Assembly (NCBI GenBank): GCA_000165425.1
Contig: CT868052.1
Coordinates: forward strand, 310,001-374,000
DNA length: 64,000 nt
Source: Paramecium tetraurelia
Lineage: Eukaryota
Direction: 5' to 3'
The position numbers and the translations under genes were made by a program. The notes below the pieces were generated by a model. It saw nothing but the letters and a program-made list of their open reading frames with translations. It was not told where the DNA came from and did no database searches. Shown here one piece after another: positions 1 through 37,691 of this stretch. Position 1 is the stretch's first letter, and each line of letters starts with the position of its first letter.

Positions 1-2101
1 AAGATAAATCTATATCCTAAGAAGTAATTAAAAAGTTTTGGAAATTATTTTTAAGAGATACTAAAAAGACAAGACAAATTGTTCTTTCATTAATTGATCT
101 AATTAGTAAATCTAATTTGAAGGAGTTGATTTCTTTGGAAAAAATTATGCTATCTTATGAAACTGAATAGGTGACTAATTATAAATTTCCATCCAAGATT
201 TTCCATGTTCTTTGGGAATACTTTGGTAGTCAAGAAGTTGATCAACGTTCAATGTTGATTTTTGTTAGAATATTATTGACTAGAAATTCTTCATATCTTA
301 ATCTAGAGAAGGTAGCATAAATTTATAATCTATTGCAAAAGTACAACAAGAAAGATCCTGATTGGATCATTATTAAAGAACTTGCCACCATTTTATCGAA
401 ATTGGATAGAACTCAAAATAAGAATCAAATAAACTTCAATAAGTCTATTGATTTATTAATAATATTACTCATTAAATACTAGAATTCATAAGATATGAAT
501 TATTTTAGTGCTTGTGATTCAATTATACAATTGGTTCCAAATGCAGACAACCCTGAATTAATTTTTGAAACTCTGTTATAGGATTTAGGATTTAAATCAA
601 ATAGAATGGATTTAGAAGTGGAAGAACAAAAAAAAATGGAAGAATTACATTTAGCACATGCAATCCACATAGCAGGTTCAGTGTCATTACAATTACTCAT
701 ATTTATTGATGCAACACATAATTCGTTAAAGAATCTTAAGAATGAGAGGGAGAAACAAATAGGAAAAGAATAAGAAATAGATAAAATTTAAGGAGGTATA
801 GAAGGTGAATTTGAAAAATTACACGGCATAGTTGATCAAATTCAAGATTTAAAACTAATCTAATAGAATTTACTCTCAGTTTTTTCTCCAATGGTAAAAT
901 AAATATTAGAAGAGTGTCTAAATTAAATGGAGACTGAAGAGGCCTCAACACGACAATAACCTCCAATAGTGCAAGTGAGTTTAATCACAATGTGTAAATT
1001 TATGTGTTTGTCTGAAACCTACTGCAGAGATAACATACAGATGTTGTTCAATATCATGAAGTAAGACAATAGTTATATTTAGATCTCCTCTGATTGATTA
1101 GGTTATGAAGAACAATGTGATTATTAGTATTGGTGATTTACTTCATAGATGGCCTAATACAATTCAAAAGTTCCACAAATAAATTTATTCAAATTTGTCA
1201 GATACTAGTGCTGCAGTTCGAAGGGTAACACTACTTGTTTTGACCCATTTGATATTAAACGATATGGTGAAGAGTAAAACTTCCTTGTCTCATATTCCTA
1301 TTTTATTGAACGATCCTCATCCTTAAATACCTGCTATGGCAAGATACTTTTTGAATGAGTTATAAAAAAAGGAATAAAGAGCCATAACCAATGCGATTCC
1401 AGATATCATTTCAAATGTCCAAGATTAAAATGAGAATGTTCTATCGCAAATCTCCTAATACATTGATAAATCACAAATTGAGTCTATTGTTGATAAACTA
1501 ATCACTATCTTGGGAACTAGCACAAGTAATGAATCAATTCGATGAATATTTAGATTAATACGAGATTAAGAATATATCCATACTGTTTAATCACATCAAT
1601 TTGAGTTAGAATTCTCTTTAGAAACTATTGGATGGTTGGGAAGAATACAGGGAAAAATTAAGAGATCAATTCGTGTTCAATTAATTTATCACTTTAATTA
1701 AGAAGGTAGTATTTGTTATATCTATAATTTAGTTGAAAAGGACTTTGCCTTAAGATGCCAAGCCTTTGATTGAGGAGTACGAAATGAAGGTGGAGCATCA
1801 TGATAAGGAAACATTTGAAAATAGGAGAAGAGAAAAAACAACCAAGAAAAAGAATGTTAAATAAACATAACATGAAAATAATAATGATAAGGAATAAAAA
1901 GAAAATAAAGGTGGAAATAAACAACAATAACAACAACAACAATAATAATAGTAATAGAAAAAGAAGCCAAAGAAGAAGAGAGAGGACGATTTCATGGAGC
2001 TGGAATCAGATTCAGATGAGATGAGTTCTGAGTCGTTGGTAATTAAGAAATAAACTAGTCAAAGAAGAAAAAAAAATACGACAAAAAATGAAGATGAATG
2101 A
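1..2101 (+). CDS. NCAPD2: Condensin complex subunit 1 (CAP-D2/Cnd1), 5' end truncated by window edge; paralog A
   Basis: Code-6 translation gives EIDKIQGG, MCKFMCLSETYC, KNNVIISIGDLLHRWPN, VRRVTLLVLTHLILNDMVK (Cnd1 C-terminal HEAT region). Charged/Gln-rich tail ends at TGA 2099-2101. Confidence 0.9.
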
Positions 2102-2156
2102 TTTTTTACACACATTTTATAATAGTTTATCAAACCCATTAATATTAATTAAAACA

Positions 2157-3895
2157 ATGGAATAAGGTTCTAATTATTTTTTCAATTGCCCTTAAAAATA
2201 ACATAAGGCCTTTTGGGATAGAAATTTTGATATATTGTTAAATCAGCATGAAAATTTCTAAATTTCAAATGATAACAGCACTACCTTCTATAAAAAGGGA
2301 AGAATATTTAAAAAATGGATACCAAGACTATATTCTGTGTAAGGAAATTATATATTGTACGGAGACACTGTAAAAATATGATTTTATTCAGAAAATGAAA
2401 GGGTTCAGGAAACTAGATTGCGTATACTTGCATTACAGCTTACTAGACAACAACTATAGATATCAATTGCAACTGATATATTGCGGATTTATTCTAGACC
2501 TCTATACTGATCAAAAGAAAGATTACGACAATTTCAAAGAGATACTCTAACAGCATTGCATTTTAACAGATTTTCATACTTAATTTAGTTTAATGAAACA
2601 AATTGGATTTGGTTCGAGTGCCTAGGTAATTTATAATAAGTCAATAGTGTTTAGGTTTACATAGCCAGAAGCAATTACAATAAGTAGTACTATGCTATCA
2701 AGAGGGTCCAGAAAAACTATTAGATTTAATAGAAGAAATTGGAACAGGAGCAGTCTCTAAAGAATGAAATCCAGATAATGAAGGAACTTAGTCATCCGAA
2801 CATTATATCTTTTCATCAAGTATTTGAGACTAATAGTAATTAATTAAATAATAAACTAATTAGAACATATCAATCTAGTTTTGGAATTAATTTAAGGAGG
2901 GGAATTACTCAAATAGGGATAATATAAAAGCATTCGAGATGCAAGAATGGTTGCACGTTAATTGGCCTTATGTGTTGATTATATGCACCAAAAAGGGATT
3001 ATGCATAGAGATTTGAAGCCTCAGAATATTTTGTGTAAATCCAACACATCTGATGTTTTGATTGCTGATTTTGGTTTGGCAACTCACATAAAGGAATCAA
3101 AATAATTATATTATAGATGTGGAACAACTGGATATGTTGCTCCTGAGATCTTGATGTATAAGGAAGGAACGAAGATGTACAATGAAAAATGTGATATCTT
3201 CAGTCTTGGGGTCATTTATTATTAACTGTATTAAATTTATAAGCTTAAATTTAAGAATTTATAATACACATCCGTTTAAAGATACTTAGAAAGCAGGGAT
3301 ATTAAAGAAGAATATGGCAGTCGAATACAAATTCGAAGATTCAATCAAAGTTCCTTAGAGTTGCAAGGATTTAATTGCTTAGATGTTAAAATCAAACCCA
3401 AAGCAAAGACCCACAGCATCTCAAATATTGAGACATGATTTCTTCAATGAATCTTTGTGTGAACTTTCTTACCCGAGTCTAATCAGTTCAATATAGGAGT
3501 ATTTAATTATTGATAAATTGATTAGTTTAAGTGAATAAAAGAAATCTGGACAGTCTTTTAATTCTTAGATCTGTGAATTGAAGTTATCAACATTTTAGAA
3601 AAATGGGCAAACTGTTTTTGAGAAAATCCCTTTATTACGATACAATGGAACCCCCAATAATCACGAGTTAAAAGAGAGATCTCCCATTTGGAATAAGCGA
3701 ATTGAATTATAGAGATTAGCCAGTTAGCCAAGATCCAAAGCTCAATCCCTTAACACAGTGAAGAATCCAGAGATCAGAGGAAATAAGGTCTCTATATTTC
3801 GACAATAATCTAAGAATTCAGAAAATGATTTAGATTAATCTCACCAATATCCATATACAAGCATAATCAACAGATGTAAAATTAAGAATAAATGA
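2157..3895 (+). CDS. Ser/Thr protein kinase (CAMK-like) with N-terminal PH-like region
   Basis: [36 protein letters not shown]; several tiny introns. Confidence 0.92.
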
Positions 3896-3922
3896 ATTTT
3901 AATACTATTTTAATAATATTAT

Positions 3923-4670
3923 TCATGGCAAATCACATAATTATTCCTGTTTGTAAAGATCCCAAAGTCTATCTTTGATCTTAGTGAAGTTATGGCAACA
4001 TAATTACAAAGTCGAATAAATGTCTTCATTATTTTAAAATATAATCTTATACAACGACTCTCGACTAATAGTTTGAATAGTTACATACCTTCCAACAACC
4101 AGCATGCCTGTTCTAGCTGCAAATCTAACAGCAAATGGATGATGAGGAGCCAAGGCAATATTGTAGGCTTCAGCACAAATAGAACCCAAACTGTCATTGG
4201 GTTTGTTGAGGAGCTTTTCCAATAGAACTGCCACGTAATCCAAAAACCACATCAATCTCAAGACAGTTCTAGCTGTTGATTCATAGTCTGTATATGCATC
4301 CATTTCGGTGCCTTTAAGATGATCACAATTTTCTCCATTATATTTAGCTACATCTAGAAATATGTGGGTTAATTAATACCCATATTCTTTTCCAACAAGA
4401 TATATTAAATGAGAGATATGTGCACGTGTTTGAAGTTCCTCTCGTTCCTTTCAATTATGTTGCATTTGGATATGATGTCTTGGAATGCTGTTTTTAGGAT
4501 TCCTCCCATTTGCATGAAAATCTGTATAATACATATATAATAACTTTTGTTGTTTCTCGACACAGCTCAAGAAAGTTGAAGTGATATTAAAAGTATTATA
4601 AATCATAGATTATGGCATCTTATAGCCATAGAAATTTTTAGAGATTGAACTAATCTTCTAATTAATTCAT
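3923..4670 (-). CDS. GLTP-fold lipid transfer protein, ceramide-1-phosphate transfer protein (CPTP/ACD11)-like
   Basis: FQDIISKCNI, ARTVLRLMWFL and AYNIALAPHHPFAVR match GLTP-fold motifs of the CPTP type. Confidence 0.85.
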
Positions 4671-4726
4671 ATTATTTCGATTTCATCTTTGATTGTGACG
4701 ATATCAAATGAATTTTAAATTAATAT

Positions 4727-5747
4727 ATGAATCATTCAGATGGTGCTCAATCCCCTCCCTTATTTGGTATGTATCCGTTACCCTATTGGCCAACAAGTTC
4801 ACAATTGTTATTGATGATGAACTTTCAAAATCCTTTGATGAGTCCTATTCACAATCTAGGTTCTCCAATTTTAACTTCCAACATTAATTTTCCTCAGCCC
4901 ACTATCAATTTTGATATCAGGTGTGATCAATGTAACAACTTTTCAAAATATCTCCATAGCGTAAATTATGAAGGATGCATCTCAAGTCAAACAGCCCTAA
5001 CAATACTTCAGTCAAATATAAACTATACAGTAATAAATTGAAGAAATGAATTATGATGATATCACTCTGGAAAATCTAGAGCAATTGATCCATTTACTAT
5101 TTGCAGATTCTTCCAAAATCAAAAAGATCATGTAAAAACTGAAAGAAAAGAAATGTGCTAAGGTAATCAAGATCTTAGACACTTTGACCAAAAAAATCAG
5201 ATCGCAACAAAAGAGTAGAGAAGAATTAATCAAATTTTGTTTGAGAAAAGCCTTTAGAGAGATCTTCCATCAAATCCAAGAGAAAAATACGAAATCAAGT
5301 AATATATATCTTTAAATTTGAGAACTGAACCTCAAAGCTGCCTCCAAACTCTTCTAGCAATCTTTTCAAGCAGAAAAATCAAAATAGATATCCTTGCCTT
5401 TCAGAAAAAATAGCAAAATCAAGACCATGAACAATCAATTTTTACATGAATTGTTCCAATCCAAATAATTTATAGATTAGTACAAGACCTTTTTGGGTAT
5501 TATTCTAATCTCTATTCTCAGATAATCTTGATGCCATCATAGAAAACGATAGAAATAAAAAAATTAAGGCCTTGGCCGAAAAATCATGGGAATTCATCTC
5601 ATCCAACAAAAAAGTATAGAGTTGCATTACAATAACTTATAGTCATATACTGTCAAAAGGTTGCCATGGTCTCTAAAGAATATAGAAAAACTCAAGGAGA
5701 CCGCCAATGAATTGCTAAACTACTGCGATGAATAATAAAGATTGTGA
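4727..5747 (+). CDS. Hypothetical protein with Pro/Ser/Met-rich N-terminus and basic helical C-terminal domain
   Basis: Open in code 6 using intron 4932-4959 and later small introns; motifs REELIKFCLRKAF and PFRKNSKIKTMNNQFL. Confidence 0.7.
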
Positions 5748-5988
5748 ATTTTAATATTATTAAATCAAAATTTATAAATTAAGAATTTTTCAAGTCCCAT
5801 CTAATTTTCGCCAAATAACCCCTTTTTGCCTTGAAAATTGAGTTCCCACACCACTTCAACAATTCTCATGGTTTTCATACTGGTATTTTTTATTTGTGAT
5901 TTATATTATATAAGTCACTTTCAAGTTACTTAATAAATAAAACAAATAATATACACATTAATATTATTTATATATATATATTAAATAT

Positions 5989-7489
5989 TCATATAATTTA
6001 ATTATATTACTGTTGCCCTTGACTGGATTTGTTGTAGCTTGATGTTTATTATTGTTCTCGAACAGACACTAATTTGTAACCCTTTCCACTTTTTATGGCC
6101 TCTATAATGGCTTGAGTCATTGCAATATCCTCTACATTGCTCTAATGTTTAAAATTTAAGGTGTTATATTTTTGTCTTAACTGCTATAGCTCTTATTCCT
6201 TAAATTTAGTGGCTTCGTCAGTAGGATCCTATCGATAGATCATAAGATTGAGTTTATTTTTTAAATCTATACTGGTCTTTTGTTTAACCTTGACTTGGCT
6301 TTCTAATTACAAAATTTCTTATTTAGCTTATTCAACCTAGTTTTAATTTTATAGGAGAGTACTTTGAATGAATCTTCAGTGCTTTTCTTGACTTGAGACC
6401 CAGTTCTTTGATGTTACAGACTTCCTTATTTTTGAAGACTAATCTAATTCATTAACTCATAGACTCTCTCTTAAAGCTCATAAACTTTATATCTCCAAAA
6501 CATTTCAACCTATTCCTAAGCTGTGTATTATTATTCTTGGACAGCAGTGGTTGTTGTCTCTTTGATAATATTTTATGGTGCTATGATGACCTAATAATTT
6601 TGCACTTATGGTATCTATTAGACTTATGTTTATTATATCATTTAAGGAATGAATTGAGATTGTTGAACGTTAAGTTATGTATTTTGGACGGGAGACTATT
6701 AAATTTATTAGATTGTTGTAGAAATAATTTATTATTGATTTTATGGTACAGTTAATTAGATATTCTAAATTGGAGATTGTTGAAGCTGTTGAGATTAAAT
6801 GAAGTTATTTCTTGGAGGAGTATTGATGAGTTATGAAAAGTTTTAAACAGTTGTGGTGTTTCTTGAAGTCAAGGGTTAACCAACTACTTAAGATACTATT
6901 ACTTCAGGTGTTTAGTAAACAACTAATCAATGAAAAACATAAGATACCATTATTTTGTGTGCCAGTGGTCACTTCTTTACCATGCAAACCGTGTTGACAT
7001 AAATAACACTGTTCTTCATATTTTCCAGAATAAAAGGTTGAAATTTATTACGAGTTTTGAAGTTATGCTTTTTAAATGACTTACTATTCGATAGGTATTT
7101 AATAAGTTTATCTCGTCTCATGTTCAATTGGTCTAGGTTGATTGTATTAAATTTGTTAAGATTATATGAGAGTTGGGCTATTTTGAATTTAATTGGATTG
7201 CAATATCTCTCTCTGTGGAGTGGTGACTTAAACATTTCTTTGATTGCTTTGAGAAATTCCCCTTTTTACAGGTATAGGCTAGCCAACAGTTTAGGAGACC
7301 AATACTTCAGGCGTTGAATAAACAACTACAAAAATAATTTATGATATAAGTACCGACAGGTTCGCCTACTATGATTCCTGTTGAGTGAGTCTGCTGTTCT
7401 ACGCCATGCAAACCATGTTGACAAAGATAACATTGTTATTCAAATTTAGGTGAATAGAATGTGGCCATTGCTTCTTAATTAGTTGACAT
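5989..7489 (-). CDS. Hypothetical protein with duplicated N-terminal CxxC-H-H module and C-terminal coiled coil
   Basis: MSTNQEAMATFYSPKFEQQCYLCQHGLHG start; introns at 7326-7353 and 6923-6947; stop at 5989-5991. Confidence 0.75.
6865..7463 (-). repeat. Intragenic duplication of about 55-65 codons plus an intron (copies approx. 7270-7463 and 6865-7038)
   Basis: Both copies encode TFYSxKxExQCYLCQHGLHG...VVYxTPEVxVSQxVGQP. Confidence 0.85.
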
Positions 7490-7838
7490 ATTAGTCTTAT
7501 GAAATAAAAAGAAATAAATTTTATCAAAATAATTTGCTTAATTTTAAAGAAGGTTTTAAGACAGGATGAAAGGTAAGCAGTTAGAAACTGAAATTTATTC
7601 GCTTGAAATTTTGGTAAGGAAAATGAGTTAGTTTCTTTTTATTCATTTTTTAATTATTAAATATTAAGTTAAAAATTTTTGAAAATGAGAAACGTTACTT
7701 ATAAATAGTGGGGCCCTTGAGAATTTTAATGCTGAAATTTATATTTTGAGTATAAGAATGCAAAAACATGTTTTTGTTATGAATTAAAAAACAGAAAATG
7801 AATACATTTGAACAATATTAATTATATATTCGTTTTTA

Positions 7839-9919: not shown

Positions 9920-10074
9920 GCCACACAAAATACAATAACATTTAATATTGATAATTTTAAACTAAAATTGTTCCAATACTTTCCAATATTATTAAATGTT
10001 TTCTTGAGTTCTACTATAAATACTCATTTATCTTTTTATAAAGGATTTATAAATAAATATATATAAATAAAATA

Positions 10075-10977: not shown

Positions 10978-11119
10978 GAATAAAAACTTATTAAATTATT
11001 TATAATCATAAACTCTTTTAATCAATTAATGAGCGTAGTAATTTTATTATTCAATAGCAAAGAATTAATAAAGCTAAGCTGAATCATACAGTACAAAATG
11101 CTTCAGATATTTGAGTAAT

Positions 11120-12223: not shown

Positions 12224-12259
12224 TTAATATAATATAATGGTAAACACTCAAATAATGTG

Positions 12260-22367: not shown

Positions 22368-22862
22368 TTATTTATAATTGCATTATAAAAACAACAATGA
22401 TTTCGATTGTAAATTATTTATTATTCACTCCTATTATTTCTTTAAGAGCTTATAGATGGATACGTATTACAAATATTTTAATAATAATCTATTCTTTGAT
22501 AGGTTCCATATTATAGATAGAGGTACTTTTAAAAAAGATTGGTAAGATGTAATTTAATTTTAATAAATTGGCTTAGAAAAAAGATTTTGTTATAAATGTG
22601 AAACAATATTTGAACATACAATGTCGGTTTGAAATACTATTCTAAATCTAACATGATTTTGGATTAATTATTTTATGAAAGAATTTGTTTTTGAAAAACA
22701 TTCATAGTTTGAACTGTAATAATAAAAATGAAAGAATAATTGATTATGACGATCTTATTCGGCTAAAACTGTTAAAAACTATTAGATTAATATTTAATCA
22801 CATTTTTTATTCATAGAATAATTTAAACAAAAAAAATACAATTTAGAAAACATTAAAACAAT

Positions 22863-23252
22863 ATGAATCAAAATAATAGAGTAGATTAATTGGATAGTCT
22901 TGAAACTGATGAAGAACTTGATTTTTAAGAGTTTGAAAGACCATAATTAGTTCGAAGAAATGGAATGATAAATTCAATATCAGAATGTAAGGGTTATATC
23001 ATATTGGATAAACCAGTTGAGAATATATTCCAAGAAGAATAATGTCCAATTTGTTTGGAGTCGTCAGAATAGCTATATCCTTTGAAATGTGGACATACTT
23101 ACTGTTAAAATGATATAGAATATATGATTGATATTTCTAAATAGTCTAACGGCTTATTCTAATGCCCGATTTGCAGAGCTTATTAAACTCTAGATTAATA
23201 TGATGAAGTTTATCATTTGAAAAAACAAAATCTGACGAATTGCACAAATTGA
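22863..23252 (+). CDS. Small RING-finger protein (129 aa)
   Basis: CPICL...LKCGHTYCQND...CPICR; intronless frame. Confidence 0.8.
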
Positions 23253-23447
23253 TAAAATAAAACTAAAATTTAAATGTTAACATCTATAAAATATTATATA
23301 TAAATAAAATAAATATTCTCATCAAAAACATTATGAATAATAAAATGATTATTCTTATCAAAATAAAAATTAAAGTCTTACTATCAGGAATGTTTTAATA
23401 GAAATTGTGATTCTAAATTTAATTTATCCTCATTGAGGGGTTATTGT

Positions 23448-23476
23448 ACTTCCATGATATGAAATATTGTGGAAGT
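23448..23476 (+). other. 13-bp inverted repeat (hairpin) in intergenic DNA
   Basis: acttccatgatat-gaa-atattgtggaagt: 11 Watson-Crick pairs plus 2 G-U pairs. Confidence 0.6.
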
Positions 23477-23530
23477 GACTTTTTAGATTTTTTATTAAGC
23501 TCATTAATATATATAATTACAAATTATATA

Positions 23531-24667
23531 ATGCAATCCTCTCAAGAAAGTAGGACGTTTCAATGCAATTTGTGTTCAACCCATGTACCACAGATATGTT
23601 AGGAAGTACATAATGTAAAATGTACTATGAAAAATCTTCAAGAAACAACTTTAAGAAATCAATTGAATGAATAATCATAGATTCCACAACAATAAAATTT
23701 CCCATAATAAATTGTAACGAAATTAATATGATTCTTTTAGAATTTTACAGAAAAAGCAAACAACTAATAACAATTTTAGTAAACAACGAATAGCTCACAA
23801 TAGTTTAGAATTGGCATAATTTCTTAATAGAATTAATAAAATATTTCTAGTATAATTTAGTCAGGTACATTGAACGCAGCGAATAATGTTACAAGATAAA
23901 TTGTATAATCTAACGCTACTTAAGAATAATAACCTGCATAAACTCAATAATTTTAAATTAGTAGAATATCATAGTAAACTACTAGTAGCAATATTTCAAA
24001 TCAATAATTTTAAAGGTTTCTTGAACTTCAAAGGTCAAGACAGCCATAAAACTAATAAACGAATACTCTATTTAGAACTAATTATGGGTAATAACAATAG
24101 CCTGTTTAGTAGGCGTAATTTCCTCAATAATAACCTAGTTTCATCTAAATTACTAATAATATCATGACACCAACTCCAAATATTTCTTAAATTTAATAAG
24201 CTCCTCGTTTTTAATAAGTTACTCGTTCCCCACCCTAATTTAATTTTTCAAGGAGTAGTTCTATTTTATAAACTGCTAATTTTACTTAAAGGACATAAAA
24301 CATTGTTCCAAGCGATGATTCAAGTAATGAAGATGAGGAAATACATGAAGTGAGTGGATTAAATAATTTTGACTTATTAAAGAACTATACAGATGAGGAA
24401 GTGAATTAAATGAATGATGAATAATTCTATCAATACTTTATACATAAACAAATTATGGAGAATCATTTGGATGAGCCTGACATATAGATATAAAGAGTGA
24501 TGGAATAATAAAATGAATTTGATAATCAATGTGTGATTTGTTAGGAAACCATAAAGAGTGAAGAGGAAACTATGGTTTTAGTTTGCGAACATAAATTTCA
24601 CGAAGCTTGCATATCCAATTGGATTAGTTGTAAATCAACTTGCCCTATATGTAAAACAAGGATTTGA
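23531..24667 (+). CDS. RING-H2 E3 ligase-like protein with N-terminal C2HC finger and Gln-rich middle
   Basis: CNLC...H...C at N-terminus; CVICQE...CEHKFHEACISNW...TCPICK at C-terminus. Confidence 0.87.
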
Positions 24668-24749
24668 TGGAAAATATTTGATAAAAATTAATTATTTATT
24701 GGCTTTTAGAAATACAATATAATAATAATTATTATTTGAATATATATAC

Positions 24750-25935
24750 ATGCAATAAGAGGCTCCAGAAGTGCAAACTATTTTTGAAGAATTGCTCAAA
24801 CCAGTATTGGAGAGAATTGAAGTTTTGAAAGAAAAAGATCAATCAAATGAGTTATAGATCAAAAATCTATTTGACCAAATGAGTGAATTGAAAACTTTAA
24901 TAGGAAACCTAAAACCAATAAAAGAAGAAGAAAAGAGTAATATTAAATAGTATGTAATAGAAATTGTCAAATAAGAGCCAAAAAAGGAAAATCACTAAAA
25001 TAATGGTATTTGAAATCAATATATTCCCACCACATAATTAGATGTTAAAAAGGTTGAACGTCCATCTACTGCTGCAAATTCTAAAAACCCAGCACCCGCA
25101 AAAGTAAAAGATCCCAAGCCTGTAACTGCCCCTAAACCTTTAAGTCAAAGTACAATTGTTGAAAAGACAACAACACCTGTTGATATCGAAAAAAGTATTT
25201 AAACTTAAATCATCTTTTTGTATAGACTAACCCAAATCTCCAAAGGAAGGAAACCAAAATAAAACTAAATAATAATAGTAACCATAACAACAACCACCAT
25301 AACCTAAACCAAAACCTGTAGTTTAACCATAATAAAAATAATAATAGATCAAAGAAACTAAAGAAACAAAGGAAACTAAAGAATAAGCAGTCAAATAGCC
25401 ACCTTAATAAAAAGAAGAAAAAAAGGTTGAAAAATAACCACCCAAACCAAAAACTGCTTAACCAGCGCAACCTGTTTAACCAGAAAAAAAAGAAGATAAA
25501 AAAGATACCAAAAAAACAGACAATAAAGCTTCACATAAATAGAATGTAAAACAACCTGAATAGAAAGCAACAGATAAAAAGTCTGATGATAAAAAGATTG
25601 TGAAAAAAGGAAAGCAAACTGAGGATACTTAAAATAAAACTGAATAATAATAAACAGATGAATAATTTTAACAATAATAATAAAATCTAGTTAAGACTTA
25701 GAATAATAGTGAATAGAAATAATAAGATGAATAACCATAGTAATAATAAGTTGAAAAAAAAGAATTCATTGAAACATAAACTGAAGCTCCTGAACCTTAG
25801 AATATTGATGAACCAAAGGAGTCATCAGAATAATAATAGCAAAATTAGGATTAATTCGTTGAGAATCAACAAATCTAAGAAGTTAATAACATTTAGCCAG
25901 AACAAATTGAAAATCAAGAATAAGAAGTAGCTTGA
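24750..25935 (+). CDS. Hypothetical Gln/Lys/Pro/Glu-rich protein with N-terminal coiled coil
   Basis: MQQEAPEVQTIFEELLKPVLERIEVLK...; TAA/TAG-rich low-complexity frame to TGA 25933-25935. Confidence 0.7.
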
Positions 25936-26016
25936 TGTTATATGAATATGCATTAAATTTTAACAATTGGTAAATATGCAAAATGACAATCATTTCTTCT
26001 TCTTGATTGATAAGAA

Positions 26017-27439
26017 TCACCATTTTCTAAATATTTTTTTTACAAAACTTAAACCCAATTTATTTAGAACTTTATCAACTTTCTAAGAATTACTCTAACG
26101 TTGAGGCTGTTGATTGACAAATTATTATATCTGATTTAAATCATGTGGTATTTGTTAAACATTAATATCATTTTATTAAGGTCTATTTCTGCAGTCACAG
26201 TCCGTTCCTCTTACCCAGACAGTGCCACAAAGATAGCAAAACTAAAATCCACATTTGCAAGTTATATGATTACATCCAGCGGTCTTCTCGATCCACCTTT
26301 GGCATTAAGAACATTATCTATATCTAGCTTCTTGAACTGCATTTATAAAGCTCTCTTCTCCACATATTCCTTCATGATATAACCTTCTACATCTAGTACA
26401 AAATAAATTCTAGCATATCATGCACACTTAGATTGGTCCTTCTATTTCATAAACACCTTTACAGTTCTCAGTTGGACATTAAAAAACATTTGGATTTTGT
26501 AATAAGTATTAATTGAAAGCAATTTTTTCTAGCCTATCCATAACTTGACTTGAGACAATATTTTCTAAGTCATCCCTCAATATTTCTTCTCTACATTCTA
26601 AGTTTGGGCATTTTATTGGAAATTCAGATGCTGCATTGATTAAATTCTCTAAGCACTATTTATGATATATATGCTAACAAGCTGTAAGAGCATACTTGTC
26701 TTATTAAACATTTTCTAAACAAATACTACATTGAGTACTTTATTAGATTTAGCTTTGTTTATTTATTTAAGAGAATATCTATGACTTCTAACTTTCTTTA
26801 TTTCTATATTCTTCATATTACTATTGTTTATATTGTTTTGATTAATCTATTGCCAGATAATAAATTTCCTTAATTTAGGGTATCTAAATTTCCACTTACT
26901 AATAATTATTCTAAATACTAGAATCAGTTGCTTCTTTATTCCCATTTTTTTCTAACATCTAGACATTCGATTGTTAAAATTAATTTATAAATTTATCTGT
27001 GTTTTCATTCTGGTCAAAGTATCCTTAAAATTTCTATTTTGATGCAATATCTTGTTTGAACTATGATAAGACAGCCGATCTTTGGTATTTATTTAAGAGA
27101 CTTGATACGCAATATAATTGACTGTTTTTAGAATCTTATAAAGCCTCATCTGGTACTTCAAAATCAATCTTCCGTTTTCCATTTATGTAATCATTATATA
27201 TTTATTGCAATTCTTTTAGATTAATGTTTTTGAACTAGTATGCTGAATGAACTTAATCAATAAGATAAAATGATTTTTTTAAGACTTTTTGATTGTTACT
27301 AGAAGCTCCTGCCTGAAATGATAAAAAAGTTATATGGAACATTTAGCTGGTATACTAAGTATTTAATGGATTTTACATCAACAAAAGGCATTTCTTGTAT
27401 CTTTCGAATATAATCGCTAAAATCAAAATAATTTATCAT
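26017..27439 (-). CDS. Hypothetical protein
   Basis: Long code-6 frame starting MINYFDFSDYIRKIQEMPF and ending ...VKKIFRKW-stop; no domain recognised. Confidence 0.55.
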
Positions 27440-27464
27440 ATTATAATAAATAATTATAAATTAC

Positions 27465-28622
27465 TCAACATGTAATATTGCTTGTTTACAATTTAAATAA
27501 AGAATTGCCAACTTATACTTCGAGGTCTTGATAAATTGGCATATCTTCTGTTATTTTGACTAAAGTGCCAAATTTAGAATTATTGTCAAACAAAATTAGA
27601 GAATCCTACTCCTGAATCCTCTCTATTTATAGAGTGGCATGAAATCTGCTCACACTAACTTCACCTAATCTAATCCAATTTTCTCTGGCTCTCCCCAAAC
27701 TCATCTTTTCTCCAAGACTTATTACCATCACTCCATCTGCTTTTGAAGTGAAGCGATCTCCTAAATTAATTTAAACAACCTAGTTATCCTTCTTTTTTGT
27801 ATAGAACTCTAGCATCACGTATGGATATCGAGGTTTTAAAAGTTCCAGCATATGATATGTTACTCCATCACTCTAAAATATCACCTTGTATGACTCTTAA
27901 CAGATTTCACATTTTAATGAATTCCATAGGTATGTTTCGCTTTTCTCAGATTAGTATTATTTTGATGACTAAGTCTATTCTTTAAGCCTAAATCTTATTA
28001 GTAAAATACCATCTTTTCATGCAATCTAAATGAATATATTTTAGAGATCCACTGCATTTACAAGGATTCAATAAAGGATTGGAACTTTAGGTATTTCCTA
28101 GACATATTCTACATTAATCATTGGAATCTGCTTTGCTTTGGTTCAAAAGCTCAGGTTCTGTAAGAGGATTAAAACTAAGACTAGAAATTCTAAATGTCAT
28201 TTTTCCAAGCCTAAAAATGTCATTTACATTTAATGGGTATTTGTTAACAGATCTTACTGTCAACCAATTTTTTTTAAGTTTGAATGGAAATTTAGTGTTT
28301 GTTAAGGCTGTAGAATTTCCTTGTTGTTACGATGTTCCAGCAACTATTGTGTTTTTAGCTGTTACAAACAGTAAAACCTCACTACATATAATAGATTCAA
28401 ATTACCTATTCTCATTGGGTAATTCATTTATTAATTGAAGTGTCTCTTCATTTCTAATAATATATGAATCTTAATTTTAGACTGTGAATTATTATTTTTG
28501 ATTGCTGATACTCTCATAGTCGAAACGATCTCCAGTGCTATTTGTTAGACATTATATTGAAATCCTGAAATTAATGATATCAAGTGCAAATACCTTTCAT
28601 TACGCATTTAACATTATCCCAT
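27465..28622 (-). CDS. RINGv (MARCH-type) + FHA domain protein, N-terminal MGQC
   Basis: CRICL...[23 protein letters not shown]...CEICQ; FHA motifs [24 protein letters not shown]. Confidence 0.9.
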
Positions 28623-28650
28623 TCAATATAGTAATATATTTTTATTATAA

Positions 28651-29481
28651 TCAAAAATCAGAATCAATGAGCTCTCTTTTTATCTTTTCAACTACTTTTT
28701 CAACTAATTTAACAAATAAATCTTCATTTCTTTCTCTTTCATTCCTACTTCTCTTACAAGCATCATAAGCACTTTAGTATATTTTTTTGAGAATACCTAT
28801 TATTTCTTCCTCTCTTTACTCCCTTTATTTTTACTAACAATCGAATATTCTTTTGAGTTCATCTAATAACTGATTAAATTATTATGCAATTTTATCCTCA
28901 ATTTCTTCCCTTATGCTAATTTTTTATTCTATATCTTAATAAAATAATTGAATTTATTCTTTATGCATTAGCTATAAAAACATTACCGTTTTATATCTCT
29001 AATAATTTATTCTAGGTTTCTGATTTTTATTGAAACTCTTTTTATATTTCAACTGATAATTAATCAACTTATTGAGATAGATTTGAAAACTCCCCTTTAT
29101 CTATTTCCAATCTTTCTTTGCTAAATCTTTTTAAAAGGGTTTTGCAATTCTTTTCCACTGTTAAAATTTCCTTTCTCATTATTTCATCTACTTAATCCCG
29201 AGCTTCCTTTTCAATATCAACAATAGATTTCAATCTCTATAACTAAACTTATTATAAAATTATCTATACTTTTTCTGCAATATCCAAAAACTGTTAATTC
29301 TTTTACTTTTAAACGTCTTCTATAGCCAATTCAACACTTTGCAAGTAGCCAAGAATCAATTTGAACTTCGATTATTTCTCTCCTTTCACATTATTTTATA
29401 TCGTCTGCAATTTTTCAAAAATTCTTTACGCTCTCTCTTCCAATCAATCTAATAGATGTCTAAAATAATTTTACCAGTCAT
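28651..29481 (-). CDS. Coiled-coil protein, possibly SF-assemblin/striated-fibre-like (start uncertain)
   Basis: Heptad-rich frame ending ERERNEDLFVKLVEKVVEKIKRELIDSDF; family call from remembered resemblance only. Confidence 0.5.
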
Positions 29482-30008
29482 TTTTCAAATTTGAAATTTA
29501 ACAATAAAAATTATAACAAATATTCACTTGTTATTCTAAATAAAATGCTAACATTCATTTATCCATTAATCGAGGAATATACATAAAGATTTATTATTTC
29601 AATCCAATTCTAATACATGTAAAAATTAATTTCCTAAAGATACATCTTACACATTTATAATAAAATGATTTTATGATATATCAAATTGGATACATACACT
29701 GAAATAAGAATAAGCTTTATTCGTTGATATAATGTAATAAAACATTAAAATTACAAATTATCCTTTTCACATTCTTCTTTCCAGTTAATTATTTTTATCA
29801 ATTAAAATCCACTAATTCTCATTTTCACTTTGGATTTACCTTTGGAAAAATAAATTATGGAAATGAAAATTTTAGATATTCTTCGCTTACACTTTTATAG
29901 AACAGTATACTGATGGTTCATAAAGAAGAGAAGAATGATAATGCAAGACTTTTGATTGATGGAATAACTAGCCACATGGTTTGACATAATAATTTTATTA
30001 ACTTATAA

Positions 30009-30752
30009 ATGTTACCTAATGATGAACAATAGAGATTATACTAAATGTTCTAATAAATGGCTGGACCTGATCCATATGGTAGAATGCTTCAAGTGCCGAA
30101 TTCTCCTTATTATCCTTGCTGGGGCCCTCCATTTCCTTAACCAATTATGCCACCACCACCCCCTAATCAAAAATTCTAATTCCCTGAGCAGTTGGCACAT
30201 GAATAAGCACTTTAGATGAACTAACTTCCACCCAATTAAAGTGGATTAAACCTAAATGGAATTAACTAGGGTTTATAAAACATGCCTCCAATGCCCATGG
30301 GTTTGCCTCCAGGTTTTGGGATGCCCCCATTAGGTCCTGGTTAAATGGCATAAGGACCTTTTGGAGCTGGATCAATGGGGCCTCCTCCTATGGGTGGAAT
30401 AACTGGAATGAGTGGTATTGGTGGAATGAATGGGATGGGACCAGGTGGTATGCAATTACCTGGGATGGGTCCAATACCATAAGGACCCATAGGTTAAATG
30501 CCACCTTTCGATTTTTAATTCAAACAACAACCTCCTATGCAATCACCAATGAATCCAAATTAAGTTATGGCACCGCAATAGCAACCGATATAATAACAAC
30601 ATATACCATAACAACAGCAAATATAATAATAACAGGCTCCTTCTTAATAACCATAGTAACAATCTTCAGGATAACCAAATTAATCCAATCAATAAAATTT
30701 GGAATAGGGTACACATAAATCTATATAAAAATAGGATTCTCACAAGTAGTGA
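30009..30752 (+). CDS. Pro/Gly/Met/Gln-rich low-complexity protein (247 aa, intronless)
   Basis: MLPNDEQQRLYQMFQQMAGPDPYG...MPPMPMGLPPGFGMPP...GGMNGMGPGGM...poly-Q; TGA 30750-30752. Confidence 0.75.
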
Positions 30753-30778
30753 ATGAGTTTTAACTTAAAATTTTAAAC

Positions 30779-31716
30779 ATGTTTGTTATGCAAAACTAAA
30801 TGCTGTTGGATTTTAAGAATAAAAATGCGAATTTGGAAAATACCATTACTTCAATATTAGATGAAATATCAAATCTATAAAAAATTGTTGAATCAAAATT
30901 TGATAATGTGTAGGCAGATGATTTCATGAGTAGATGTAAACTAAAAATATTTATCCTTAGTATCAATACCAAATTAAGAAATGACATAAAATAATATTTT
31001 ATTAAAGTCCTTATAATGTAACTAGAGCGATTTTCAATATTAACTAGTATTGACAAACGATTTGGAATAGCCATTATTTAAGGATAAAAATTTCAATTTA
31101 TATATTGCTCTTAAAGACATGAAAGGAATGAATATCAAAAACCATAATAAAATAGAATTGGAGGTTCAACTGTATTCTTCAGATGATAAGCCTGTGCTTT
31201 TGATATCAAATTCTTAAAACTAAGCCATTCTGAGATAACCTGAAGATAATATATGGCTGGAGGAAGGAATATCAAATATTGAAAAACTACAAATAAATGA
31301 AGTAACTTCTCATTATTAGAATGGCTGGATATATTTAGTGGTTTATCCAATTAAAAACGATAATAAAATTGTTTAAAATTCAATTAGTCCTTCTTAAATA
31401 AAACCGTTGATTTATAAAGTCAGTGTAAAATCAAAGAAAACTTAGAAAAAGTATTTAGTAAAAATATTTAAGGTCATCCCGTTCAAGATCGAGATCCCAT
31501 GAAAGATTACGTAGACTGGAAAAGTTGGATGATAGATCAAGTTCAGAATCTGAAAATCACATCTAATTAGAAATAAAGAATCTTGATGTTAATGATGAGA
31601 TTTAATAAGAAAAAGAGAATGATTAGGATGGAGAGTAAAAGTAACAATAAGAATAATAGTAAAATAATGAATAAAAGAAAGATGAGGTGCATTAAAATAA
31701 AGAATCTGATCTTTGA
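30779..31716 (+). CDS. Hypothetical protein with central beta-rich domain and acidic/Gln-rich tail
   Basis: After a 25-nt intron near 30936 reads ...LQINEVTSHYQNGWIYLVVYP...IKPLIYKVSVKSKK. Confidence 0.7.
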
Positions 31717-31754
31717 GATTTGTAATGTATTTGCGATACTTATTTATAAATTAA

Positions 31755-32434
31755 TCATTTCAGTCTCCAAGTTTCCTTGATTAATGCTATAAAATTATCG
31801 TCTAATTCGATATCAGCACTGACTGCAGCATAGTATTCCTTCCATTCCTAAACTTGAATATTGTAATATTACATCTAAGGTGATATGGCCAGATTTGTTT
31901 CCTTCCTTGAAATATTGTAACAACTCTATATAAGCCTAATCTTCAGTCAGTTCTCCTCTGGTAACTTTAGGATGATTTTTTGCATTGAAAATCCCTTTGA
32001 ATTCATCAGCCACAATATAACCCAAATTATCCTTATCAAATTTTTTGAATGCTTAGACTATGACTTACACTCTGTTCTCATTGGGAGATCCCTATTTATC
32101 AATTTATTTTTTACTCTAATTAAATAAAAGAATTCAGCAACATCTATTGATCCATCCCTGTTTCTATCGAGATAATTTAATAAAAACTATATGTATATAT
32201 GGGATTACGTCAGTTTAGAATTTTGTTAACACGACTCCATTTTATTTTAGACCAATGAGGAATTCATCCTTGTCCATCCTATTATTTTTATCAAATGATT
32301 CAAATCCCCTGAATGTTTTTCCTAGAGTTCTAATTGTGGTTGAGCATTTTCCTAATAATGATTTTGTGATCTTTTTAATAACTACTTATAGTAAACTTCT
32401 TACTTATATCAAGTTATTCTTGAGGAGTTATCAT
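31755..32434 (-). CDS. Calcyphosine-like EF-hand protein
   Basis: IRTLGKTF, DKNNRMDKDEF, DRNRDGSIDVAEF, AFKKFDKDNLG, NHPKV, EYYAAVSADIELDDNF. Confidence 0.9.
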
Positions 32435-32675
32435 TTTTTACAAGTTATTTTATTTATTTATAAATATTAATTATTTCATTTTTTCTCCATTATCATTATA
32501 TCAGACGTAAATTATTTTCAAAAGTAAAATTGTTATCATTAAAATAGAAATGATAATCCTTAGGTTTATTTAAAAAGATCTAAAATGGTTAATATTTGTG
32601 TAAGAAACTATCGATCTGGTAAATTAGTATCAAAAGATTTTGATGACATAAATAATAAATATCAATAATTTAATT

Positions 32676-34034
32676 ATGCTTCTTTAATTTGAATGCCTTC
32701 GAAAGCATTTGATTTTTGATAAGGCGTACATCCTTTAATGTTATGAAAGAGAAGTATTCATTGGAGAAGTAATTCTAAAATTTTAGAATATATTAAGAAT
32801 AGAGCAAAACCCAAATACTATTTTGAAGTGTCACTGAAGAATTTTATTGTATTTCACACTGAATAAGATTATTTTGGATTCTCCATTCCCTATAGAGGAA
32901 AGTTAAAGCTATTTCATGCAAATTCCAAAAAAGTCAGAGAACTTAAATTACTTTTATCTGGAAAGATTCTTTTTGGAGACTTGAATTAATTCTATCTGTA
33001 AAAGCATTAACTTGGACATGGATCATTTTCATACGTAACCCAAATACTAAATATAAGGTTAATTTGTTGTAGAACCTAGAAACCAAAGAAATGGTGGCAG
33101 CTAAGTTTTTAAGTAAGCAATGGAAGCACAAAACCAATACAGAGCGAATGAAGGCAATAATATAAAATTATTTAAAGGAAATAATAAACGAAAATAATAT
33201 AGTATAATCTTTGAATCATCCAAATATAACCAAAATAAAAGAGGTCTATGACAAAAATTCAGAGATAGTCATAATATATGAATTTATAGACGGAGACACC
33301 CTTGAGAAATATTTACATGATCATTGTGGGTCTCTAAGTCATTTCGATATTTAATCTATTATGCGAGTAAAGCCAATTAATTAAATTTCTTAGCAAATAC
33401 TACTGACATTATTCTATGTTCATCAACAATAACTCATTCACAGGGATATAAAGCCGTCAAATATAATGATTCAATAAAATCATAATATCAAAATCATAGA
33501 CTTTGGCTTAGCTACAAAAATTGGAGTAACTAATAACGATATTTGTGGTACTGTCGGCTATATCGCTCCAGAAGTGTTGTGTATTACTACTTAGCAATCT
33601 GTTTATTCATTTAAGTGCGACATGTTCGCAGCAGGAGCGATATTTTATAAATTGTAATTTGTGCATGATAATTAAGAATAACTTCCCATGACTTATTTAC
33701 GGAGGCCAAAGATTACGCAAATTTTTAATTAAAATTAGACCTTTTAAGAAAACTCAATACTCCTGAATCTGGGATTGACTTATTGCAAAAGCTTTTGGAT
33801 TTTAACTATAAAACAAGATTAAGCGCCAAAGAAGCTTTATCTCATCATTATTTCACTGAATCTCTAAGAGTGTCAGCCAAAAAGTCTTTACAAATGTCTC
33901 AATAGAATATTCTATTAGCCAATACTTCTCAAGTTTCGCTGATTGGTACTTCAGAAACTCCAATACAAAATGTTAATATTTTCACTTAAAATCTTAACAG
34001 GCGATTCAGGTTTTCAATATAATTAAATAATTGA
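32676..34034 (+). CDS. Ser/Thr protein kinase (CAMK-like), degenerate Gly-rich loop
   Basis: MLLQFECLRKHL start; VAAK, HRDIKPSN, IDFGLA, CGTVGYIAPE. Confidence 0.9.
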
Positions 34035-34161
34035 TTTGTACTATTGCATTTATTTATCTATAATAAAAATTATATAATTATAATAACATTTCAGAAACTT
34101 AAGAGAATAAGGAATGTATATGAAAAATCAAACATTCAAAAAAATATAAAATTATTTCAAA

Positions 34162-37100
34162 TCAAAATTCAGTAGATTAAGTATATAGCTAATCTAAGAT
34201 ATTAGTATATCCAATTGATCTTTGTGAATTTGTATGAGACCTAGTTGACTTTTATGATTTATTCTTGGATCCTAATACTCTGCGTTTGGTCTCACCTCGA
34301 TTAAGCAGCTCCTCGAATTCCAGTAATATTTATTTGTTTTCTTAATTTAACCCACATTTCATTAACTAATCATAAAAATACAAATATACTTTTTAGATTA
34401 TCACTTAGAAGTACTCTTTAATCTATGGATTTTCTAATCTTTCTTAATAATATGGATAACATTCATAAAACTTTCTTGCTAAGGATTCCTTCATTTAGAG
34501 TTTCGATAATGTAAAAACAATGTTTTAAACTTCAAAATCATTGATATTTTCTTTTAACCTTCTCAACAATTTCTCAACCAATTATTCAGTCTATTTATCT
34601 AAGTATTTCAAAGTATTCATGAGAAACGTTTTATATTTATCATGACTTTCCTCGTTGGACATAGTAAATATGATGTCAGGTAAACTGTTGAGTATTCTTC
34701 TTGAATCCTTCTTCTATATTTGGAAAAAGAATCTTTTTGCTGATTATTAAATGTTTTCATCAGGGTCAGTCAATAACATGGCTATATCAGTAATTTCTCT
34801 TTTGATTTTAATCATATCATTTAAGATCAAATGTGATAGCATATTTAATGAAGTCTTTTTTACAATAAAATCCTAATTGCTTAACCCATCAAAAAGTTAT
34901 CTACAATAAGATGTTACTGTATTTGGCCATCTGTGCAATAGATCACCAATAGCAACTATTAAATTGTTCTTAAATATTCCATCAGAATTTGGATTTTATA
35001 TTAATCGAAACACTTTCTCAATATGTTCTTCACAAAATTATTCAGATAAACACATGAATTTACACAAACATAGACCTGCTGATTTATGTAATATTGTCAA
35101 CTGTACATTCTCTTCTTCAATTTCAGCCAATATCTCCAAGACTATTGGAGCATAATTTTAATAGAATCCTTTTTAAATCACACCTATTGATATTTTTAAG
35201 ATATATACTTTATTTGCATAAAGTCTATAAATATACGCAATTATATTCGTATTCTTCTTCGCAACCCCCTTAGATTTTATCCAATTCATTTTCTTTGGCT
35301 TCCTCTACATTTCTTAAATGAGTTAATTGATTCTCAATTTCGTCAATATGAAGAATGATAGCCAGAGCTGATTAACCAACAATAAATAACAATTAACTGA
35401 GTTGTATACATTAATTATTAAATACTAAAGTGGATTCCTCTTCGAGAAAGTCTTGAGTGCTATATTAATTAATGATCTAGATTTACCTTCTTTTAGGAGT
35501 CATTCCCATAGAAAAGACTTTGTAACTAAACTTTTTAATTATGTAATCATAGATACTCTCTGGAACAGGTAAAAATTAAATCAAATTTAGAATCTCTTAG
35601 CAAGCAACAAACCACAAATTGTTGGGTGTTCCAAAATAGAAATATAAAATTAAGGAAAATTGTTAGAAATATTTCTTAACAAGTACTTTGTCTTCTAAAT
35701 ACTAAATTAATTTCGCCAATTCTACAACTGTGATCCAATTGATTTCTTTTTTCTATCCATCAATTATTTTACTTATTTGATCTAATTTCATTCTTGTTAA
35801 AAGATTAGATTGCTACCCAAACATAACTCTTACTAGTTTAGAATACTAATTTAATTATTCATGTTGATTAATAGTGTAGTTCCTCATAAAATTAGTCCAT
35901 ACGATTTCAATCGTAGTTTCTTGTATCATTTTCTATTTGATCATATATCGAATGAGTTCTTCAAGGTAAATTTATTCTTTTGGCGATGAAATTTTTAATA
36001 AATGAATCAAATTATTAATTGGAACTTAATCATTATCGTTTTCTATAAATAGCATATGGAACTTTTTAGACAATTTATTGACTATTTAGGGGTTATTAGA
36101 GTGAATCAACATCTTCATGATGCCAACATCAGTATTTTCTATTTTCTATTTAAATAAAAAACTAATGAGAGAGATAGCTTTATAAATGTCAGTGATGCAT
36201 TTGCTATTTAATAGTAATTCAATGTTTGGCAATAACTTTTGTAAGAGCTCCATAAACTCTTGATATTGAATGAACACAGATTGCAATTTCTTCTTCTCTC
36301 TCAAATTAGAGACAACTAGATTCTCTTCATCTTCTAATTCTTTGAATTCTGCTTCGGTCTGTGCATTACCTTTGTCTTCTAATATCTAATCGATGGCTAT
36401 TAAAGTCTTATGAATTTCAGTTCCCAAATATTCATTTTACTCCTTGATTTCAGTGATCTTCATGAAATTTTACATTTATAACCCATCAACAAATAGGTTT
36501 TTCATAAATCTGGTTGAATTCTATATATTTTGAAATTGTACTTTGTTATTTATTTAACAAATGCCAAGGCTGCCTTTCTCACCATCGAAGAGACATCTTA
36601 CACTCTTGCGATTACCAATGGGAACATCATAAGTTATACACTTGGAGGTATAAGATTCTATGAGCATACAACTCTTAACATCTTTAAAGTGTGAACTCTA
36701 GCATATGCATTTTTATCAATAATTCTTGATGCCAATTTCTAAATGAGGAATAGTCTTTGATTTAATTGGTTTTCTTTCATTTCTACATCCTACTCCACTT
36801 TCGATGGATTCAAATGCTCAGTTAGAATATTTGTGATTATTGTATTAATGGCATTTCTAAGACAGTAGCACTAATAATAATAGATATAAATAATTTACTT
36901 CGCTATCGTAAAATTGCAAGAAAACAGGCAAATTTTAATTAAATAAATTTGGCAATTGAGCACTTACTCTTTCAAATACTTTAGATACTTGTTTTAATGA
37001 ATTGCTCTCATTTTATAAGATTTCCAAACTGTGTTAGGCTAAAATGGTAATGAATTGGGTAACAAATGCAGTGTTTTCACAATATATTAGTAAATCTGAA

Positions 37101-37691
37101 ATTTATTGATCACAATCTTCTGAATTGAATACAATTTGAATCAACCTATTTTTAATGTAATTATGAAGATTCTCTTTTCTTATGATTTTCCTAGCTTAAT
37201 TTTGTAAACATTGTTTAACATCGTTCTCCTTTATTTTTGTTTTATAAAATTATAGTATTGTTTCTATTCCCATCTAGCCATGTTTATCATATTGTCCAAA
37301 TGATGTTAATGTTTCCTTCTATAATTAATACAAATTCTCCTTCCTGTTTTTGTTTTAATCATCCAGAGTTGCCTATAAAAACTTCATCTGTAAAATCTCA
37401 AACTCCAAGGCATCCTGTCTCTTTAGAACTTCCTTCTCTAGAAACTCTAAGATATCGTCCTTTTGGATCTATCTCTAAGACTTATTATATACCTATTGCA
37501 CACCATAATAGAGGATGGTAAAAGTTTCACTATCAAAATGCTTACTGTGATTAAATTCCTCAATAGCTGATCTCATTTATCTGAGTATCAGTCTGCTATC
37601 CTTGGTTTTGAGTGAATTGTAAAGACTATTATCAAACTATCATATAAGTTCATCATACTTAAATATTGGGATATTCACTTAGCTCGTTCAT
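34162..37691 (-). CDS. NCAPD2: Condensin complex subunit 1 (CAP-D2/Cnd1), full length; paralog B
   Basis: NELDKIQGG, LCKFMCLSEQFCE, KNNLIVAIGDLLHRWPN, KTSLNMLSHLILNDMIK, LPDII; about 3.5 kb with few introns. Confidence 0.9.

What the first reader, a model, noticed from the sequence alone, without database searches (positions are those of the whole stretch)
1..37691. Two deeply diverged condensin CAP-D2 paralogs 32 kb apart on opposite strands
Seen: 1-2101(+) and 34162-37691(-) both encode the Cnd1 region and share DKIQGG, CKFMCLSE, IGDLLHRWPNT and HLILNDM. They differ widely between motifs, in intron placement (A has an intron near 1061-1082, just before KNNV; B has none there) and in the tail (A has a long charged/Gln tail with KPKKKR). 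Known: Tetrahymena has CPD1 and CPD2, and a specialised condensin containing Cpd2 acts in the developing macronucleus. Inference: these may be the housekeeping and development-specific subunits. Whole-genome-duplication copies normally sit on different scaffolds, so linkage suggests an old local duplication.
Basis: partly seen in the sequence, partly recalled or inferred. Interest (0 to 1): 0.7.

Follow-up and report, generated by a model that had tools for sequence, protein, structure and literature searches.

The report
Two known Paramecium condensin subunit genes
These are two already-catalogued Paramecium genes for one chromosome-packing (condensin) subunit, one active in ordinary growth and one switched on at meiosis; neither is the copy known to be needed for DNA elimination, so the finding is mostly ordinary.

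Summary
Observation confirmed. Both loci encode CAP-D2 (Cnd1 domain; 29.7% identical). The genome is Paramecium tetraurelia, with six CapD2 loci, matching the six published CAPD2 genes (Balan et al., PMC13092971). By family structure and gene position, A is CAPD2.1b (highest in vegetative cells) and B is CAPD2.2a (24-fold up at meiosis). The subunit shown to be needed for DNA elimination, CAPD2.3, is on another contig: both its published primers map there, and the one tested against the window finds no match. So 'housekeeping + specialised' holds, but the specialisation is meiotic/early, not new-macronucleus. The linkage is real and old: it is repeated on the genome-duplication twin contig and on 10 of 10 contigs from five aurelia species. 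A and B share one intron position and group together in trees (95/94), although B+CAPD2.3 is not rejected (p=0.055). Not found in print: the block carrying A is inverted relative to the older paralogous contigs, where B's empty slot lies about 10 kb upstream on the same strand, so the layout may be a rearranged tandem pair. Orthology to Tetrahymena Cpd1/Cpd2 could not be tested.

The parts
1..2101 (+). 3' part of gene A, CapD2 (inferred CAPD2.1b, PTET.51.1.G0160194); full gene C69:308411-312101, 1196 aa, begins 1,590 bases before the window
   Evidence: name assigned from family structure and gene-index versus position, not by direct look-up
1061..1082 (+). intron 2 of A (22 nt, phase 2), absent from B
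   Evidence: same position in C3 paralog
1105..1518 (+). Cnd1 (PF12717) domain of A
   Evidence: 115 bits
1526..1553 (+). intron 3 of A (28 nt, phase 1)
1706..1732 (+). intron 4 of A (27 nt, phase 0), same aligned position as the last intron of B
1733..2101 (+). last exon of A: charged, Gln-rich tail with KPKKKR
22385..28651 (.). interval holding the right breakpoint of an inversion relative to paralogous contigs C3 and C546; the inverted block contains A but not B
34162..37691 (-). gene B, CapD2 (GSPATT00006770001; inferred CAPD2.2a, PTET.51.1.G0160217), 1115 aa, 8 exons
34366..34389 (-). intron 7 of B (24 nt, phase 0), shared position with intron 4 of A
34507..34971 (-). Cnd1 (PF12717) domain of B
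   Evidence: 98 bits
35184..37658 (-). introns 1-6 of B (37637-37658, 37469-37492, 36871-36898, 36510-36541, 35460-35486, 35184-35208), none at an intron position of A

Best explanation
A and B are alternative HEAT-IA (CAP-D2/Ycs4) subunits of condensin I in Paramecium tetraurelia. A (CAPD2.1b, with twin 2.1a) serves the constitutive complex (Smc2, Smc4.1, CapG, CapH.1) that handles micronuclear mitosis and macronuclear division. B (CAPD2.2a, with twin 2.2b) is switched on at meiosis and most likely replaces A in a meiotic/early-autogamy complex with CapH.2, condensing germline chromosomes for meiosis and the gametic and zygotic divisions. Neither belongs to the developmental complex (CapD2.3, CapH.3, Smc4.2) that assists PiggyMac. 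The two arose by a local DNA-level duplication before the last two genome duplications and stayed linked. Shown here: sequence, gene models, copy inventory, linkage, location of CAPD2.3, inversion relative to C3/C546. Taken from print: expression profiles, CAPD2.3 function. Inferred: names of A and B, complex partners (proposed by the authors, untested), B's meiotic role, local origin.
For: Two independent own-genome searches give the same six loci, which sort as trio (A, A', C3; 67-90%), pair (B, B'; 92%) and singleton (23-27% to the rest), like CAPD2.1a/b/c, 2.2a/b, 2.3. Table S1A IDs put 2.1b/2.2a and 2.1a/2.2b each 23 genes apart on one scaffold; position divided by gene index is 1,586-1,641 for 6 of 6 loci, against 1,177-2,169 if the two scaffolds are swapped. 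CAPD2.3 primers match 1 of 40 loci, on C369. Meiosis/vegetative ratio is 0.9 for 2.1b and 23.6 for 2.2a; log profiles correlate 0.98 (2.1b with CAPH.1) and 0.97 (2.2a with CAPH.2), six points each. 10 of 10 B-bearing contigs from five aurelia species also bear an A ortholog. A-type plus B-type form one clade: 95/94 (15 rows), SH-aLRT 99 (28 rows, quick tree), 0.999 (159 rows, FastTree). One shared intron position. Best solved matches are Ycs4/Cnd1 (E 1e-36, 1e-43); CAP-D3 only 5e-8 for the A twin and not listed for B.
Against: No knockdown, localisation or pull-down of CapD2.1 or CapD2.2 was found in print; the authors call these complexes inferred. B is still at 203 units in DEV1, so an early-development role is open. 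A tree forcing B with CAPD2.3 is not rejected (p-AU 0.055), and all Paramecium branches are long. No non-kinase neighbours of A and B are paralogous, so a multi-gene segmental duplication is not shown. Names of A and B rest on position and family pattern, not on a sequence look-up of the PTET IDs.
Confidence: 0.8

Rival explanations
1. One reading: B is the development-specific, Cpd2-like subunit acting in the new macronucleus during DNA elimination.
For: B is near-silent in vegetative cells and still expressed in DEV1 (203 units); B scores best against CAPD2.3 among the paralogs (60.6 versus 39.9 bits); B+CAPD2.3 clade not rejected, p=0.055.
Against: The developmental role is held by CAPD2.3 on C369; its knockdown alone retains all IESs, so B does not compensate; no other condensin subunit was enriched in its tandem purification; B's mRNA peaks at meiosis and is back to 14-20 units by DEV2-4; the free trees join B with A.
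Confidence: 0.07
2. B is a dosage booster: an interchangeable CapD2 added when meiosis raises condensin demand, with no special biochemistry.
For: CAPD2.1c, a 67%-identical A-type copy, has the same early-peak profile (8/483/330/55/24/25; r=0.90 with 2.2a), so an A-type protein can be used at meiosis; SMC2 also rises at meiosis.
Against: B is 30% identical to A yet 90% conserved to P. sonneborni and kept in both WGD copies in five species; it lacks A's long tail and differs in the KG-loop (KR versus KT); a kleisin (CAPH.2) shares its profile.
Confidence: 0.2
3. A and B are copies from the oldest whole-genome duplication or a dispersed duplication, brought together later by rearrangement; linkage is incidental.
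For: 30% identity is deep enough; the region has been rearranged at least once; no shared non-kinase flanking genes.
Against: Chance that two given loci lie within 40 kb is 0.1-0.2%, about three times that allowing for any of three pairs; undoing the inversion brings them closer (about 10 kb) and on one strand; four candidate old-paralog regions showed no CapD2 and only one non-kinase anchor.
Confidence: 0.12

Closest known systems
P. tetraurelia CAPD2.1b and CAPD2.2a (Balan et al., PMC13092971 / 10.1101/2025.10.03.680307, Table S1A)
   Same: [quoted passage not shown]
   Different: The text I searched does not mention their linkage, the inversion, the shared intron or the lost copies on C3/C546 ('scaffold' 0 hits; 'synteny' 0 hits); it says only 'segmental and whole genome duplications'.
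P. tetraurelia CAPD2.3 (developmental condensin I with Smc4.2, CapH.3)
   Same: Same family (Cnd1, 68 bits); stage-specific expression.
   Different: Other contig (C369:332219-335581), intronless, 24-25% identical to A and B, peaks in FRG-DEV1, required for IES excision.
Tetrahymena Cpd1 / Cpd2 (condensin D; PMC6724606)
   Same: Two or more CapD2 paralogs sorted into complexes by kleisin and life stage; Cpd1 is the vegetative, shared subunit.
   Different: Tetrahymena has two CapD2 genes with non-adjacent IDs; its germline complexes differ by kleisin (Cph1/2), not by CapD2.
Fungal Ycs4 / human NCAPD2 (PDB 6QJ3, 6QJ4, 6YVU, 7Q2X)
   Same: Homologous over most of the HEAT solenoid.
   Different: The KG-loop glycine that 120 of 149 other CapD2 rows keep is replaced in all Paramecium rows (KT in A-type, KR in B-type, eroded in 2.3).

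Membership tests
CAP-D2/Ycs4 (condensin I HEAT-IA subunit) | Cnd1 domain PF12717 above curated cut-off | tested here: met
   115 and 98 bits versus 26.4
CAP-D2/Ycs4 (condensin I HEAT-IA subunit) | Full-length (1,100-1,400 aa) HEAT protein closer to CAP-D2 than to CAP-D3 | tested here: met
   1196 and 1115 aa; Ycs4 E 1e-36/1e-43 versus CAP-D3 5e-8 or absent (A tested through its twin P0034); top 3 Atlas clusters for B are condensin subunit 1/CAP-D2 at 0.98
CAP-D2/Ycs4 (condensin I HEAT-IA subunit) | N-terminal Cnd1_N domain PF12922 (common, not universal) | tested here: inconclusive
   Not detected at E<=0.001 in B or in A's twin; N-termini align only weakly; divergence cannot be told from loss
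CAP-D2/Ycs4 (condensin I HEAT-IA subunit) | KG-loop contacting the Smc4 head (PMC6591010) | tested here: inconclusive
   Loop and lysine present, glycine replaced (KSKT in A, KIKR in B); 29 of 149 other CapD2 rows also lack the glycine
CAP-D2/Ycs4 (condensin I HEAT-IA subunit) | Binds a CapH kleisin within an Smc2/Smc4 complex | not tested
   No complex prediction was run; only co-expression with CAPH.1 and CAPH.2
Developmental (DNA-elimination) condensin subunit, CAPD2.3 / Cpd2-like | Is the gene targeted by the published CAPD2.3 reagents | tested here: not met
   Both primers match only L019 on C369; forward primer has 0 matches in the window at up to 3 mismatches
Developmental (DNA-elimination) condensin subunit, CAPD2.3 / Cpd2-like | Intermediate-peak expression with PGM | tested here: not met
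   Published profiles: A early repression, B early peak; correlation with CAPD2.3 is -0.95 and 0.02; rests on the inferred names
Developmental (DNA-elimination) condensin subunit, CAPD2.3 / Cpd2-like | Orthology to Tetrahymena Cpd2 | not testable with these tools
   No protein labelled Tetrahymena retrieved; one search hits unnamed, and 10 of them looked up gave no species
Developmental (DNA-elimination) condensin subunit, CAPD2.3 / Cpd2-like | Knockdown blocks IES excision; localises to new macronucleus | not testable with these tools
   Bench work; not reported for CAPD2.1/2.2 in the text read
Whole-genome-duplication ohnolog pair (A with B) | Copies lie in paralogous blocks with shared neighbours | tested here: not met
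   Self-comparison of C69:280-374 kb finds only CapD2 and kinase matches; true twins are on C446

The most novel reading that the evidence does not exclude
A same-strand tandem duplication older than the last two Paramecium genome duplications created a meiosis-dedicated CapD2 (CAPD2.2), independently of the DNA-elimination copy; a later inversion pulled the pair apart. On the sister paralogon, where CAPD2.2 was lost, the housekeeping-type copy CAPD2.1c acquired the same meiotic profile, so a meiotic CapD2 evolved twice. If CapD2.2 pairs only with CapH.2, Paramecium has a true meiosis-specific condensin I with its own HEAT subunit.
Probability: 0.3. Interest if true: 0.5.

Novelty: already known. 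Interest (0 to 1): 0.2.

Why it matters
The genes and their expression classes are in print, so the finding adds little as a discovery. What remains useful: CAPD2.2a/b and 2.1c are the untested members of a proposed meiotic condensin I, and this analysis says which copies must be silenced together (2.2a+b, then 2.1c) and that the 2.1/2.2 split is a separate, old, local event. A meiosis-specific condensin HEAT subunit would parallel meiotic cohesin variants and would be worth a specialist's attention if confirmed.

Tried and rejected
Tetrahymena Cpd1/Cpd2: three word-based protein searches returned none labelled so; the profile search (best 150 of 2,979) is unnamed, and a look-up of 10 hits (9 near Paramecium in the tree, 1 further) named no species, so I call them unnamed, not ciliates. 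Remnants of B in its slot on C3: best tblastn E 0.055 in 14 kb; on C546 best E 0.017 in 90 kb, outside the slot: none found. Direction of the inversion: 40 kb around each of four distant paralogs of a flanking gene (C14, C666, C224, C557) gave only that gene and kinases: unresolved. Old paralogy between C369 (CAPD2.3) and C69/C3: only kinase matches: not supported. Segmental duplication of a CapD2-kinase cassette: the kinases beside A and B are 39% alike over 99 aa and in different relative orientation: not supported. The 28-row careful tree did not finish in two runs; its quick tree and a finished 15-row careful tree are reported. Sequencing runs: no holder on record as RNA; three raw RNA runs of unknown stage gave 180-239 reads over 7.5 kb, on B's strand, with B near its neighbour's depth in X22 and several-fold lower in X23 and X24: too thin and unlabelled to date expression. 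Earlier scan findings: none. No structure or complex prediction was run.
Full report
What is there. The window reads under the ciliate code and lies at G000:C69:310001-374000 in a 72.09-Mb, 697-contig assembly; named protein records on contigs of equal length identify it as Paramecium tetraurelia. Gene B spans 37691-34162(-), has 7 introns of 22-32 nt and reproduces protein P0022, 1115 aa. Gene A begins 1,590 bases before the window and runs C69:308411-312101(+), 1196 aa, 4 introns. Their best solved relatives are fungal Ycs4, not CAP-D3 (A through its twin). Contigs of one public run splice out 6 of B's 7 introns, and a loose end matches exon 1 at the seventh. By hand arithmetic, 4 x 7 introns over about 3,300 positions gives under 1% for one such match by chance, somewhat more given splice-site preferences.

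The family. Searches of the genome with B's and with the most distant copy's Cnd1 region return the same six loci: A and A' (C446, 89.7%), a third A-type on C3 (67.7%), B and B' (C446, 92.1%), and an intronless singleton on C369 (23-27%). Balan et al. list six genes, CAPD2.1a/b/c, 2.2a/b and 2.3. Their Table S1A has 2.1a/2.2b as genes 262 and 285 of one scaffold and 2.1b/2.2a as genes 194 and 217 of another. Position divided by gene index is 1,586-1,641 bases for 6 of 6 loci under my assignment and 1,177-2,169 if the two scaffolds are swapped. So A is CAPD2.1b and B is CAPD2.2a; this is an inference, not a direct look-up. The CAPD2.3 primers each match 1 of 40 fetched loci, on C369, and the forward primer has no match in the window.

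What they do. Published RNA levels (VEG, MEI, FRG, DEV1, DEV2/3, DEV4) are 391/341/185/135/169/244 for A, 26/613/375/203/14/20 for B and 28/49/2123/2749/1094/838 for CAPD2.3. A tracks kleisin CAPH.1 (r=0.98), B tracks CAPH.2 (0.97) and 2.3 tracks CAPH.3a (1.00), on six log-scaled points. CapD2.3 purifies with Smc2, Smc4.2, CapG and CapH.3a only, and its loss retains all 44,928 IESs. The authors propose a constitutive complex with CapD2.1a/b and a meiotic one with CapD2.1c or 2.2a/b, both awaiting test. The most likely mechanism is subunit exchange: the Smc2-Smc4.1-CapG core takes CapH.1 and A in growth and CapH.2 and B at meiosis.

The linkage. C446 repeats the whole arrangement collinearly, so it predates the duplication that gave the 90% twins (the recent WGD; the WGD names are recalled, the identities measured). 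Of the 15 members of B's cluster, 10 contain CapD2 (5 are the neighbouring TLDc protein). Strand and distance were not visible for the sister species. Two unrelated loci fall within 40 kb with probability 0.1-0.2%.

The inversion. C3 and its twin C546 are the older paralogon (A-type copy at 67%). Against them, the stretch C69 305.0-332.4 kb, which holds A, runs the opposite way to its flanks on both sides, which include B's neighbours. On C3 the breakpoint lies between 256,362 and 256,459. B's slot falls between C3 249.3 and 251.7 kb, about 10 kb upstream of CAPD2.1c and on the same strand; no remnant is detectable there or on C546, and C546 has also lost its A-type copy. The direction could not be fixed; I put it near even. 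B's presence in that slot before loss is inferred from its depth of divergence (30% versus 67%).

The tree. A-type and B-type join at 0.999 (FastTree, 159 rows, proteins under 850 aa left out), SH-aLRT 99 (quick tree, 28 rows) and 95/94 (careful tree, 15 rows, 850 columns), with CAPD2.3 outside on a very long branch. Forcing B with CAPD2.3 costs 5.2 log units, p-AU 0.055, so that alternative is disfavoured but not rejected. Tetrahymena sequences were not obtained. A preprint on SMC evolution finds ciliate CAPD2 trees poorly resolved and suggests parallel duplications.

Papers, and what I saw. 10.1101/2025.10.03.680307: abstract and outline, passages, sections 5, 12 and 14; its bioRxiv supplements and all figures were not seen. 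PMC13092971: passages, supplement search, supplement parts 4 and 5 of 5; parts 1-3 unread apart from search hits, and they could mention linkage. PMC6724606, 10.1101/2024.01.07.573240, PMC6591010, PMC8932526: passages. PMC10700549: search listing only. Searches for prior mention; only the Balan paper holds 'CAPD2.2'.

Verdict. Real and correctly spotted, but already catalogued; the exciting reading (the DNA-elimination subunit) belongs to a different gene. The residue of novelty is evolutionary detail and an untested meiotic condensin. Interest 0.2.

Noticed in passing
G000:C3:260876-264540 (L023): CAPD2.1c is A-type in sequence (67.7%, same four intron positions) but has B's meiotic profile (60-fold up at meiosis), on the paralogon that lacks B: possible convergent takeover.
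   Followed up: partly
window 1260-1290(+) and about 34810-34830(-): All Paramecium CapD2 rows lack the KG-loop glycine (KT, KR, or eroded in 2.3), which 120 of 149 other rows keep; the matching Smc4 W-loop was not examined.
   Followed up: partly
G000:C369:332219-335581 (L019:4219-7581): CAPD2.3 is a single 1120-codon frame without introns and has a 30-residue insertion after the Cnd1 domain; an intronless copy on the longest branch could be a retrocopy or could have lost its introns.
   Followed up: no
window 37752-39700(-): TLDc (oxidation resistance-like) gene ends about 60 bases before B's start; two sister-species annotations fuse it to CapD2.2 (1573 and 1575 aa). Separate transcript contigs suggest an annotation artefact.
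   Followed up: partly
G000:C546:128748-129191 (L044): The A-type gene is reduced to a gap of about 440 bases on C3's twin contig, with flanks intact.
   Followed up: partly
G000:C69:305409-306824(-) (L007): NYD-SP28-domain coiled-coil gene is 94-98% identical in protein over 366-389 aa to its C3 paralog, far above neighbours at 60-80%: strong constraint or gene conversion.
   Followed up: no
G000:C69:307393-308411: A protein kinase gene lies head-to-head with gene A, starts about 100-150 bases apart, kept on C446 and C3: possible shared promoter.
   Followed up: no
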